64,000 nucleotides of DNA, taken from assembly GCA_023898725.1 (NCBI GenBank), contig CP060236.1, positions 807,086-871,085 on the forward strand, given 5' to 3'. Origin of the DNA: Alphaproteobacteria bacterium. GTDB taxonomy: Bacteria > Pseudomonadota > Alphaproteobacteria > JAUHZC01. Position 1 is the stretch's first letter, and each line of letters begins with the position of its first letter. The notes beneath the pieces are model-generated. The model did no database searches. It saw nothing but the letters and a program-made list of their open reading frames with translations, and was not told the origin of the DNA. A program made the translations under genes and the position numbers. Shown here piece after piece: positions 55,542 to 57,155 of the stretch.

Positions 55542-57155
55542 ATGAAAAACACAACAATGATGGCCGCTGTTCTAACAGCAGCCCTGGGTGTCAACACCGT
55601 GACAGCAAGCTCAGGCTATATGGAATTGTATGCGGAAGCTTGTTTAGCGCGCGCCACTCCAGCGGCCCGGATAGAAGTGGCTGCTAAGATGCTTGATCAG
55701 GGTGATGAAGCGGCGGTTGATGCGGCTGTGACAACTATTCGCGCTAACCGCTATGGCATTTCGGGTGCAGGGGGACAGGTCATGCCCGCGGGTGTGCTGT
55801 CGGCGACTGATGTTCAGGCCGCCCAAGCTGACATTGGTGGTGGTGCTGATCTTGTGACGAATGCTGCGGCACTCCATCAACTCACTGGTGATGCAGATGC
55901 GACAACAGGTGTGACAGCCGCCCAAGCTGACATTGGTGGTGGTGCCGCTGATCTTGTGACCAATGCTGCTACTCTTCATCAACTTACTGGTGATGCAGAT
56001 GCAACAACGGGTGTGACAGCCGCCCAAGCTGACATTGGTGGTGGTGCCGCTGATCTCGTGGCGAATGCTGCTGCGCTTCATCAACTTACTGGTGATGCAG
56101 ATGCAACAACGGGCGTGACGACCGCTCAAGCTGATATTGGTGGTGGTGCCGCTGATCTTGTGACGAATGCTGCTGCGCTTCATCAACTTACTGGTGATGC
56201 AGATGCAACAACGGGCGTGACAGCCGCGCAAGCTGCAATTGGTGGTAGTGCTGATCTTGTGACGAATGCTGTTGCGCTTCAATCAGCCATTGATCCTGGT
56301 CAGGATGCAACAACTGGTGTGACAGCCGCCCAAGCTGACATTGGTGGTAGTGCCGCTGATCTTGTGGCGAATGCTGCTGCGCTTCATCAACTTACTGGTG
56401 ATGCAGACGCGACAACAGGTGTGACAGCCGCGCAAGCTGCAATTGGTGGCAGTGCTGATCTTGTGACGAATGCTGTTGCTCTTCAATCAGCCATTGATCC
56501 TGGTCAGGATGCAACAACTGGTCTTCAGGGTGTTAAAACAACACTAGGTGATATCGGTAGGGCTGTTTTTGCTCATTATCAAGCAGCAGATGCGACCGCT
56601 CAGAAAGCTTTGACTGATGCCGCTCAGGCTGCGCAGGCTGCTCAGGCCGCTCAGGACGCCTTGGCTATTGCCGATCAGGCCGCTCAGGACGCTCAGGCTC
56701 AGGCTGCTCAAGCCGCTCAGGCTGCTCAGGCTGCTCAGGCTGCTCTGGACAACTTCCAGGGAACTGTTGGAAGCAAAAAGTGGGGGACCCTAGGTAAAGC
56801 CGCTAAGGACGCTAAGGACGCTCAGGACGCTCAGGCTCAGGCTGCTCAGGCCGCTCAGGTTCAGGCCGCTCAGGCCGCTCAGGCCGCTCAGGTCGCTCAA
56901 GCCGCTCAGGCTCAGGCCGCTCAGGCTGCTCAGGACGCTCAGACCGATCTGGCGGAGGCACGTAATCGTATCCCACAACACCATCAGGCAAGTGTCATGG
57001 CTGGAAATGCGCCTTCCGGTATGAGTGCCATTGACGATCTTTCAGTGGTTTTGGCCGTGCTAAAGGCTTACAATCCTGATAGCCTGCCAATCGCTCCGGC
57101 TGCTAGCGCTAGCGACATTGTGGCAGCAATGCAGGCTCACAACATGATCGGATAA
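55542..57155 (+). CDS. hypothetical secreted repeat protein, 537 aa (same N-domain, then 34-aa and AQAAQ tandem repeats)
   Basis: The first ~70 aa are nearly identical to the 193-aa proteins (2 substitutions). Then come ~7 tandem 34-aa units (AQADIGGGAADLVTNAAALHQLTGDADATTGVTA), an AQAAQ/AQDAQ low-complexity block, and a unique C-terminus. Confidence 0.6.
   Translation: MKNTTMMAAVLTAALGVNTVTASSGYMELYAEACLARATPAARIEVAAKMLDQGDEAAVDAAVTTIRANRYGISGAGGQVMPAGVLSATDVQAAQADIGGGADLVTNAAALHQLTGDADATTGVTAAQADIGGGAADLVTNAATLHQLTGDADATTGVTAAQADIGGGAADLVANAAALHQLTGDADATTGVTTAQADIGGGAADLVTNAAALHQLTGDADATTGVTAAQAAIGGSADLVTNAVALQSAIDPGQDATTGVTAAQADIGGSAADLVANAAALHQLTGDADATTGVTAAQAAIGGSADLVTNAVALQSAIDPGQDATTGLQGVKTTLGDIGRAVFAHYQAADATAQKALTDAAQAAQAAQAAQDALAIADQAAQDAQAQAAQAAQAAQAAQAALDNFQGTVGSKKWGTLGKAAKDAKDAQDAQAQAAQAAQVQAAQAAQAAQVAQAAQAQAAQAAQDAQTDLAEARNRIPQHHQASVMAGNAPSGMSAIDDLSVVLAVLKAYNPDSLPIAPAASASDIVAAMQAHNMIG
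55821..56528 (+). repeat. in-frame 102-bp coding tandem repeats (~7 units) inside the 537-aa gene
   Basis: Reiterated gcccaagctgacattggtggtggtgccgctgatcttgtgac...gatgcagatgcaacaacgggtgtgaca units with sparse substitutions. Confidence 0.85.
56621..56945 (+). repeat. 15-bp (gctcaggcNgctcag) coding microsatellite-like repeats encoding AQAAQ
   Basis: Reiterated gctcaggc[t/c]gctcag[g/a] units. The opposite-strand ORFs in this region are artefacts. Confidence 0.8.

What the first reader, a model, noticed from the sequence alone, without database searches (positions are those of the whole stretch)
55821..56945. In-frame 102-bp (34-aa) tandem repeats and a 15-bp AQAAQ repeat tract within the 537-aa gene: likely length-variable region
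There are about seven near-perfect 102-bp units and then about twenty 15-bp gctcaggcNgctcag units. Both have unit lengths that are multiples of 3, so slipped-strand or recombinational expansion and contraction would keep the reading frame. This is a signature of contingency or antigenic-variation genes. The minus-strand ORFs in the track here are repeat artefacts.
Basis: seen in the sequence. Interest (0 to 1): 0.6.

Follow-up and report, generated by a model that had tools for sequence, protein, structure and literature searches.

The report
Exported orphan protein with in-frame repeats
An uncultured small-genome alphaproteobacterium encodes an exported, very alanine-rich protein built from seven copies of a 34-amino-acid module plus an Ala-Gln helical tract; the repeats are real and translated, but nothing shows that they switch rapidly.

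Summary
ORF 55542..57155 (+, 537 aa) contains seven in-frame units of 102 bp (the first is 99 bp) at 55818-56528. It also has two Ala-Gln blocks at about 56617-56745 and 56799-56946. The short repeat period is 9 bp (AAQ) with occasional 6-bp AQ units, not about twenty 15-bp units. The 102-bp units are not near-perfect: there are two unit types, 87-94% identical within a type and 71-81% between types. Differences among units fall mainly on third codon positions of the + frame (61 third, 18 first, 0 second). So the + frame is translated and under purifying selection, the antisense ORF is an artefact, and the array has not been homogenised recently.

The gene comes from a 1.1-Mb MAG labelled 'Alphaproteobacteria bacterium'. 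It is the last gene of a 7-kb island of orphan genes with signal-peptide-like N-termini and in-frame repeats. Its promoter region and first 72 codons are about 99.5% identical to two identical upstream 193-aa genes. Nothing matches in Pfam, PHROGs, PDB, plasmids, phages, GTDB representatives or JGI metagenomes. The one outside homolog, a 299-aa metagenomic protein, has four diverged copies of the module.

Length differences between strains are plausible but could not be tested. The contingency or antigenic-variation reading is not supported. This is an ordinary kind of feature in an undescribed protein family.

The parts
55542..57155 (+). 537-aa ORF. The mature protein is about 49.5 kDa with pI 4.07, 30% Ala and 10% Gln.
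   Evidence: ORF list; composition, mass and pI; AAGGA Shine-Dalgarno-like motif 7-11 nt upstream of the ATG, read from the sequence.
55542..55610 (+). Sec-type signal peptide MKNTTMMAAVLTAALGVNTVTA|SSG. The AXA-like cleavage site was judged by eye. There is no lipobox cysteine.
   Evidence: Read from the translation. The two 193-aa paralogs carry the identical peptide and the 298-aa paralog a similar one. No signal-peptide predictor was available.
55117..55757 (+). Shared 5' module: the 425-nt upstream intergenic region plus the first 72 codons. It differs at only 3 of 641 positions from the region upstream of and inside the second 193-aa gene (54110-54750). Similarity ends abruptly at about 55758.
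   Evidence: DNA alignment; mismatch list.
55818..56528 (+). Seven in-frame 34-aa (102-bp) units in the order A-A-A-A-B-A-B. The last four form a 204-bp higher-order repeat.
56529..56616 (+). Non-repeat linker (LQGVKTTLGDIGRAVFAHYQAADATAQKALTD). It starts the long predicted helix.
   Evidence: Translation; AF2 helix 320-408.
56617..56745 (+). Ala-Gln block 1: degenerate 9-bp AAQ repeat with 6-bp AQ units.
56799..56946 (+). Ala-Gln block 2: (K/D)A(K/Q) units followed by AAQ and AQ units. Together with block 1 it is predicted as the two arms of an antiparallel helical hairpin, with pLDDT 75-85 over residues about 340-480.
   Evidence: The 3' part from 56863 onward is reproduced identically in an independent short-read contig (L001).
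56947..57152 (+). Non-repeat C-terminal region. Its last ~45 residues (…DDLSVVLAVLKAYNPDSLPIAPAASASDIVAAMQAHNMIG) show a similar pattern to the C-terminus of the 298-aa paralog.
   Evidence: Protein alignment.
57178..57202 (+). Perfect 8-bp hairpin CCCGGATT-N9-AATCCGGG between the stop codon and the downstream OMP gene. There is no T-run after it, so a terminator role is uncertain.
   Evidence: Read from the sequence. The terminator scan did not call it.
55644..56282 (-). 212-aa antisense ORF: an artefact of the stop-free repeat.
   Evidence: Codon-position analysis; TTG start and repetitive Cys/Arg/Ser-rich translation.

Best explanation
This is a translated gene for a Sec-exported, acidic, alanine-rich modular protein of the cell envelope or cell surface. 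The organism is an uncultured alphaproteobacterium with a small (1.1 Mb) genome. The protein has five parts: a signal peptide; a short helical N-domain shared with paralogs; seven copies of a 34-aa module (consensus A-A-x-A-x-I-G-G-x(2-4)-L-V-x-N-A-x-A-L-x(5-8)-D-A-T-T-G-V-T); a long Ala-Gln helical hairpin; and a small C-terminal domain shared with one paralog.

The module is a structural building block of a small, undescribed protein family. In this gene it was amplified by unequal recombination, first as single A units and then as a 204-bp A-B pair. The number of modules and AAQ triplets sets the length of an elongated, probably alpha-helical, protein. I infer that it acts as a spacer or adhesin-like element at the envelope or host interface. 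Copy number may differ between strains, as in strain-typing repeat proteins. It is not a high-frequency switch.

Shown: the repeats, the reading frame, purifying selection, the paralog family, the mosaic 5' module, and the single outside homolog. Inferred: export route, final location, helical fibre shape, role at the host or envelope interface, and length differences between strains.
For: - Repeats and ORF.
- Translation and selection: among type-A units, 61 differences fall on third, 18 on first and 0 on second codon positions; 55 codon differences are synonymous and 18 non-synonymous.
- Export: the signal-peptide-like N-terminus is identical in the two 193-aa paralogs and similar in the 298-aa paralog.
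- Module as family motif: the 298-aa paralog has single copies (…SAHSLRSWINPDQDATTGLYGL…) and a related C-terminus. The outside homolog P0004 has four 33-37-aa copies, 46% identical over 130 aa, with pairwise E 6e-15 and library E 1.3e-7. P0004 shows no DNA-level repeat.
- Amplification history: a 204-bp higher-order repeat at 93% identity and the pairwise unit identities.
- Helical Ala-Gln hairpin: AF2 helices 320-408 and 415-488 with pLDDT 75-85.
- Acidic protein: pI 4.07.
- Context: the gene lies in an island (49852-57155) of + strand orphan ORFs, between bamE and an OMP beta-barrel gene. The 298-, 193- and 537-aa products share a signal-peptide-like N-terminus. The 427-, 193- and 537-aa genes have in-frame repeats. 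All but one of the window's strong tandem repeats lie in this island (the exception, at 46464, is about 3 kb upstream), and every period is a multiple of 3.
- Source: a MAG with a 1,107,460-bp contig. The window carries five MFS transporter genes and a weak patatin-like match (26.6 bits, below Pfam's 27.7 cut-off), which fits a host-dependent lifestyle.
Against: - There is no experimental or comparative evidence on location or function.
- The signal peptide was judged by eye only.
- Structure prediction of the repeat region failed (pLDDT about 50 for the full-length run and 39.7 with a 3-sequence alignment). Helicity of the module is therefore a guess, and the region could be disordered.
- No outer-membrane translocation or anchoring domain is recognisable (no Pfam hit). 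The protein may simply be periplasmic.
- No second strain was available, so length variation is unmeasured.
Confidence: 0.6

Rival explanations
1. Contingency or antigenic-variation locus. Frequent slipped-strand or recombinational gain and loss of 102-bp and 9-bp units would generate size variants of a surface antigen within a population. The near-identical 5' modules of the paralogs could add cassette-like exchange.
For: All periods are multiples of 3. Exact runs of up to 58 bp occur between adjacent units. Three tandem genes share a 5' module that is at least 99.5% identical, giving substrates for unequal crossing-over. The island concentrates the window's tandem repeats.
Against: The units have diverged 6-13%, mostly at synonymous sites, so there has been no recent homogenisation or turnover. 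The AAQ tract is degenerate, with 76-79% matches. No simple-sequence tract in the promoter and no invertible element was seen. The homolog keeps the module as old, diverged repeats. There are no population data. The likely hosts of a 1.1-Mb environmental alphaproteobacterium are protists without adaptive immunity (inference).
Confidence: 0.12
2. Periplasmic or envelope structural protein with no host-facing role. The long Ala-Gln helical hairpin and helical modules would act as a periplasm-spanning spacer or tether working with the adjacent outer-membrane beta-barrel protein. This would work like TolA domain II or Lpp-type alanine-rich helices.
For: The protein has a Sec-type signal but no recognisable outer-membrane export or anchor domain. 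The gene lies 95 nt upstream of an OMP_b-brl gene (E 8e-12), and bamE flanks the island. In the P0004 locus the homolog is also followed directly by a 232-aa protein with a signal peptide that looks like a beta-barrel. The Ala-Gln hairpin is the only confidently predicted element.
Against: The two 232-aa downstream proteins are not significantly similar (E 0.039), and the second has no Pfam hit. A hairpin separates the gene from the OMP gene. An essential envelope component would be expected to have more than one detectable homolog among 1.84 billion representatives.
Confidence: 0.22
3. Assembly artefact or decaying pseudogene. The repeat copy number or the ORF itself would be a product of long-read mis-assembly of a MAG, or the gene would no longer be functional.
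For: The sequence comes from a MAG. The exact 537-aa product is absent from the protein collections, although its neighbours are present. Short-read contigs break at the repeats.
Against: The frame stays open through 1.6 kb of repeats. Each unit is distinguishable, with a longest exact run of 58 bp, so the array can be assembled. Substitutions show purifying selection in frame. The 3' 290 bp and downstream genes are identical in an independent Logan assembly.
Confidence: 0.04

Closest known systems
Anaplasma marginale MSP1a (surface adhesin with a variable number of 23-31-aa tandem repeats)
   Same: Both are alphaproteobacterial proteins whose size is set by in-frame tandem repeats of about 30 aa that differ slightly from one another. 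In MSP1a, the repeat number differs between strains, yet the gene is conserved during multiplication in cattle and ticks (PMC3679145). It is a strain marker, not a rapid switch, which is the behaviour I consider most likely here.
   Different: No sequence similarity was found by any search. MSP1a repeats are serine-rich and N-terminal, followed by a conserved C-terminal region. Here the repeats are Ala/Gly/Thr/Asp-rich and central, and an Ala-Gln tract follows. Adhesin function and strain variation are not shown here.
Ehrlichia tandem repeat proteins TRP32, TRP47 and TRP120
   Same: Acidic (pI about 4), tandem-repeat-containing exported orphan proteins of reduced-genome alphaproteobacteria (PMC3417381). 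This protein has pI 4.07.
   Different: The Ehrlichia TRPs are type 1 secretion substrates with an uncleaved C-terminal signal. This protein has an N-terminal Sec-type signal peptide. Its last 50 residues are 66% LDAVTSIF, but that equals the whole-protein background of 67%, so it says nothing. There is no sequence similarity.
Mycoplasma variable lipoprotein families (Vlp, Vsa): conserved 5' signal-peptide module plus in-frame repeat region. Comparison from my own knowledge, not tested here.
   Same: A tandem gene family shares a nearly identical 5' end (promoter, signal peptide) with different repetitive 3' bodies whose periods preserve the frame.
   Different: There is no lipobox. There is no promoter homopolymer tract and no site-specific inversion element. 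The repeat units are diverged rather than identical. No variation has been observed.
P0004, a 299-aa hypothetical protein from metagenome ERZ926935 (the only real homolog found)
   Same: A signal-peptide-like N-terminus and four copies of the same 33-37-aa I-G-G…L-V…A-x-A-L…D-A-T-x-G module, 46% identical over 130 aa. Its locus has a similar G+C content of about 44-45%.
   Different: It has no Ala-Gln tract and its N- and C-terminal regions are unrelated. Its repeats are too diverged to register as DNA tandem repeats. The neighbours differ too: dnaK-dnaJ upstream.

Membership tests
Contingency locus / phase- or size-variable surface antigen | Repeat copy number differs within or between populations at high frequency | not testable with these tools
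   No second genome or spanning contig of this species was found. The exact protein is absent from the collections. GTDB and JGI scans were negative. Logan contigs break at the repeats.
Contingency locus / phase- or size-variable surface antigen | Repeat units (near-)identical at the DNA level, reflecting ongoing turnover and homogenisation | tested here: not met
   A units are 87-94% identical to each other and 71-81% to B units. Differences are mainly synonymous. The AAQ tract has 76-79% matches with 9-12% indels.
Contingency locus / phase- or size-variable surface antigen | Unit length preserves the frame (size variation) or breaks it (on/off switching) | tested here: met
   Periods of 102, 9 and 6 bp all preserve the frame.
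Type 1 secretion tandem-repeat effectors (Ehrlichia TRP / RTX-like) | No N-terminal signal peptide; uncleaved C-terminal secretion signal | tested here: not met
   An N-terminal Sec-type signal peptide is present. The C-terminal LDAVTSIF content of 66% is no higher than the whole-protein 67%.
Type 1 secretion tandem-repeat effectors (Ehrlichia TRP / RTX-like) | Acidic protein with tandem repeats | tested here: met
   pI 4.07 with 7 x 34-aa repeats. This feature is not specific to the family.
Tetratricopeptide (TPR) or other known 34-aa helical repeats | Match to TPR-clan profiles or the two-helix consensus | tested here: not met
   No Pfam family at E<=1. No PDB sequence match. The AF2 two-helix-per-unit model has pLDDT 39.7 and cannot be used.
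Trimeric or classical autotransporter adhesins | C-terminal beta-barrel translocator or YadA-type anchor | tested here: not met
   No Pfam hit. The C-terminus is a short region predicted helical or unstructured.
Lineage-specific paralog family of this MAG (193-, 298- and 537-aa proteins) | Shared signal peptide plus N-domain | tested here: met
   88% identity over 84 aa to both 193-aa genes (tblastn E 8e-39). Recognisable alignment to the 298-aa protein, which phmmer also recovers as P0009 (E 1.3e-4).

The most novel reading that the evidence does not exclude
The 34-aa I-G-G…D-A-T-T-G module may define a previously undescribed repeat family of exported proteins in uncultured, reduced-genome Alphaproteobacteria. 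The locus may also work as a recombinational expression array: three tandem genes share a 5' module (promoter, signal peptide, N-domain) that is at least 99.5% identical over 640-1000 bp but carry different repetitive 3' bodies. Unequal crossing-over or gene conversion would then change gene copy number and swap bodies behind one export module. That would diversify the exported proteins of a symbiont that has no known variation system.
Probability: 0.12. Interest if true: 0.5.

Novelty: new member of a known kind. Interest (0 to 1): 0.27.

Why it matters
In-frame tandem repeats in exported or surface proteins of host-associated bacteria are common, so the phenomenon is not new. This case adds three things.
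- The protein has no detectable relatives apart from one metagenomic sequence.
- Its repeat module is absent from Pfam and the PDB.
- It sits in a compact island of repeat-bearing exported orphan proteins in a very small, uncultured alphaproteobacterial genome.

Such islands are the obvious candidates for host-interaction factors in symbionts that cannot be cultured. The array would also make a handy strain-typing marker if copy number varies. The practical lesson for the scan is that frame-preserving repeats alone do not indicate a contingency locus; how far the units have diverged from each other has to be looked at.

Tried and rejected
- **Word-indexed homolog searches.** Three queries (the protein, a two-unit repeat profile, and P0004) returned nothing beyond P0004 itself.
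- **Exhaustive phmmer search of 1.84 billion representatives**. It returned 10 hits. Two are this MAG's own paralogs and one is the real homolog P0004. The rest (P0002, P0003, P0006, P0007 and others) are unrelated repeat proteins with other unit lengths, and I rejected them as compositional or periodic matches.
- **GTDB scans.** The protein gave nothing. The neighbouring UPF0176 rhodanese gene, used as a synteny anchor, gave only hits of about 50% identity in Gammaproteobacteria and Rhodobacteraceae. There was no close relative, so no syntenic comparison was possible.
- **JGI metagenome scans.** The protein and P0004 both gave nothing.
- **Exact-protein look-ups.** The 537-aa and 193-aa products are not on record. 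The OMP and the 298-aa paralog each gave one Logan contig from SRR12358676, and both contigs end at the repeats.
- **Family and collection searches.** Pfam, PHROGs, PDB sequences, plasmids and phages gave no meaningful hit. The best was CagL at E 0.025 over 21 residues, which I rejected.
- **AlphaFold2.** Both runs gave an unusable model of the repeat region, so no fold search was run.
- **Conserved 'repeat protein plus 232-aa OMP' gene pair.** The two downstream proteins are not significantly similar, so this is not supported.
- **Type 1 secretion signal composition test.** Uninformative, because the whole protein has the same composition.
- **Paper search for the sequencing run id.** No paper found.

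Full report
**Observation**

The window has a 537-aa ORF at 55542..57155 on the + strand. Tandem Repeats Finder reports a 102-bp array at 55818-56485 (6.6 copies, 86% matches, score 943). It also reports two degenerate arrays of period 9 at 56622-56745 and 56799-56946. Parsing the translation gives seven units at 55818-56528. The first is 33 aa and the others are 34 aa.

The units fall into two types:
- Type A (units 1-4 and 6): AAQADIGGGAADLVTNAAALHQLTGDADATTGVT
- Type B (units 5 and 7): AAQAAIGGSADLVTNAVALQSAIDPGQDATTGVT

DNA identity is 87-94% among A units, 93% between the two B units, and 71-81% between types. Units 4-5 and 6-7 form a 204-bp higher-order repeat at 93% identity.

The short repeat is not a 15-bp unit. 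It is AAQ (9 bp) with interspersed AQ (6 bp): 16 AAQ, 4 AQ, 3 DAQ, 1 VAQ and 1 VQ. These lie in two blocks separated by a 20-residue non-repeat linker. The motif gctcaggcNgctcag occurs 9 times with overlaps. Two of its claims are overstated: 'near-perfect' and 'about twenty 15-bp units'.

**Which strand is read**

Among the five type-A units, pairwise differences fall 61 times on the third, 18 times on the first and never on the second codon position of the + frame. Of the codon differences, 55 are synonymous and 18 non-synonymous. This is the signature of purifying selection on the + frame.

The gene has an AAGGA motif upstream of the ATG. Its N-terminus, MKNTTMMAAVLTAALGVNTVTA|SSG, reads as a Sec signal peptide without a lipobox. 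That was judged by eye, because no predictor was available.

**Source and surroundings**

Exact look-ups of neighbouring proteins place the window on a 1,107,460-bp contig of a MAG labelled 'Alphaproteobacteria bacterium', with locus tags H6849_039xx. The rest of the window is an ordinary small bacterial chromosome. It encodes HflX, isocitrate dehydrogenase, citrate synthase, GltX, PBPs, BamE, five MFS transporters, an alternative oxidase and a weak, sub-threshold patatin-like match.

The gene is the last of an island (49852-57155) of six + strand orphan ORFs of 427, 298, 291, 193, 193 and 537 aa. The island lies between bamE and an OMP beta-barrel gene. G+C rises to 0.47-0.52 in the island, against about 0.43-0.45 elsewhere. 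Every strong tandem repeat in the 64-kb window lies at 46.4-57 kb, all but one of them (at 46464) inside the island, and every period is a multiple of 3.

**Paralogs and a mosaic 5' end**

The two 193-aa genes are identical. Positions 53526-54523 equal 54533-55530 exactly. The 425-nt intergenic region plus the first 72 codons of the 537-aa gene (55117-55757) differ at only 3 positions from the corresponding stretch of the second 193-aa gene. Similarity then stops abruptly at about 55758.

The 298-aa gene is an old paralog, 26% identical over the alignment. It shares the N-domain pattern, single copies of the B-type motif (…SWINPDQDATTGLYGL…) and the C-terminal ~45 residues. The body of the 537-aa gene is thus related to the 298-aa gene. 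Its 5' expression and export module was duplicated or converted recently together with the 193-aa genes, more recently than the 102-bp units diverged.

**Relatives elsewhere**

The following gave nothing:
- Pfam, PHROGs and PDB sequences
- plasmids and phages
- GTDB species representatives
- JGI metagenomes
- the word-indexed protein search

An exhaustive phmmer search of 1.84 billion representatives gave ten hits. Two are the MAG's own paralogs. One, P0004, is a genuine homolog: a 299-aa protein from ENA metagenome ERZ926935. It has a signal-peptide-like N-terminus and four 33-37-aa copies of the same module, 46% identical over 130 aa with pairwise E 6e-15. The other hits are unrelated periodic proteins.

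In P0004 the repeats are too diverged to be detected as DNA tandem repeats. The module therefore behaves as a conserved structural unit there, and the array in the window is a lineage-specific amplification of it. P0004 lies between dnaK-dnaJ and a 232-aa gene with a signal peptide. That downstream protein is not significantly similar to the window's 232-aa OMP.

**Structure**

AlphaFold2 without an alignment gave mean pLDDT 54. Only residues about 340-480, the two Ala-Gln blocks, were predicted with some confidence (75-85), as two long antiparallel helices. The repeat region stayed near pLDDT 50 in that run. A second run with a three-sequence alignment gave 39.7. Neither model of the repeat region is usable, so I ran no fold search. 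The mature protein is about 49.5 kDa, with pI 4.07 and 30% Ala.

**Interpretation**

The best-supported reading is an exported, elongated, modular protein of the envelope or surface, belonging to a small lineage-specific family. Unequal recombination amplified a 34-aa structural module and an AAQ helix, and this set the protein's length.

Frame-preserving periods and exact runs of up to 58 bp make length differences between strains plausible. The closest analogy is Anaplasma marginale MSP1a. Its 23-31-aa repeats differ in number between strains, while the gene stays conserved during multiplication in cattle and ticks (PMC3679145).

The contingency or antigenic-variation reading lacks support. 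The units have accumulated mostly synonymous divergence without homogenisation. I saw no promoter simple-sequence tract or inversion element. No population data exist either. The Ehrlichia TRPs share acidity and repeats but are type 1 secretion substrates with C-terminal signals (PMC3417381). This protein has an N-terminal signal, and its C-terminal composition is uninformative.

A purely periplasmic structural role next to the OMP gene remains a serious rival. An assembly artefact is unlikely. The units are individually distinguishable, the frame is intact, and an independent short-read contig reproduces the 3' end exactly.

**Limits**

Location, structure and function are inferred.

**Verdict**

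The feature is real and the gene is translated. It is a new member of a known kind (repeat-bearing exported protein of a small-genome alphaproteobacterium) in an undescribed protein family. Interest is low to moderate.

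Noticed in passing
window 53517-55757: Tandem 1007-bp duplication carrying two identical 193-aa genes (53526-54523 equals 54533-55530 exactly). It continues into the 537-aa gene as a 641-nt 5' module with only 3 mismatches and a sharp breakpoint at about 55758. This points to recent duplication or gene conversion, and it is a stronger substrate for copy-number change than the 102-bp array. The copy number rests on the long-read assembly, because short-read contigs break here.
   Followed up: partly
window 53324-53404, 54130-54210, 55137-55217: An 81-nt element (91% identical between copies) lies just downstream of the 291-aa gene and of each 193-aa gene. It marks the 3' boundary of the duplicated units. 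Its function is unknown.
   Followed up: no
window 49852-51135: A 427-aa Ser-rich orphan protein with an N-terminal hydrophobic segment. It contains an in-frame 225-bp x 1.9 repeat (93% identity, 50239-50667) and a perfect 24-bp x 2.2 repeat. It has no Pfam family.
   Followed up: no
window 53902-53957 and 54909-54964: A perfect 24-bp x 2.3 in-frame repeat (SVGSDVDF) inside each 193-aa gene. Unlike the 102-bp units, these copies are 100% identical. This small array is the better candidate in the island for recent slippage.
   Followed up: no
window 4674-5312 (-): Alternative oxidase (Pfam AOX, E 5e-84) in a 1.1-Mb bacterial genome. To my knowledge (not checked here), AOX is uncommon in bacteria.
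   Followed up: no
window 60485-63676 (+), 46282-47322 (-), 44401-45663 (-): Further orphan proteins flank the island. A 1063-aa ORF has no Pfam or NCBIfam hit. A 345-aa ORF has a 27-bp x 2.4 in-frame repeat. A 419-aa ORF has a weak patatin-like phospholipase match (E 8e-6, 26.6 bits, just below Pfam's 27.7 cut-off). These may be further host-interaction candidates.
   Followed up: partly
window 5557-8189, 17917-19113, 27953-29233, 47482-48741: Five MFS-family transporter genes in 64 kb. This is a high density and fits a metabolite-scavenging, host-dependent lifestyle.
   Followed up: no
window 57178-57202: Perfect hairpin CCCGGATT-N9-AATCCGGG between the 537-aa gene and the OMP gene, with no T-run after it. 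It could be an atypical terminator or an RNA-stability element.
   Followed up: no
L034 10001-11624: In the only homologous locus (ENA ERZ926935), the repeat protein P0004 is directly followed by a 232-aa protein with a signal peptide and beta-barrel-like sequence features. This is the same length and position as the OMP downstream of the window gene. The two proteins are not significantly similar (E 0.039).
   Followed up: partly
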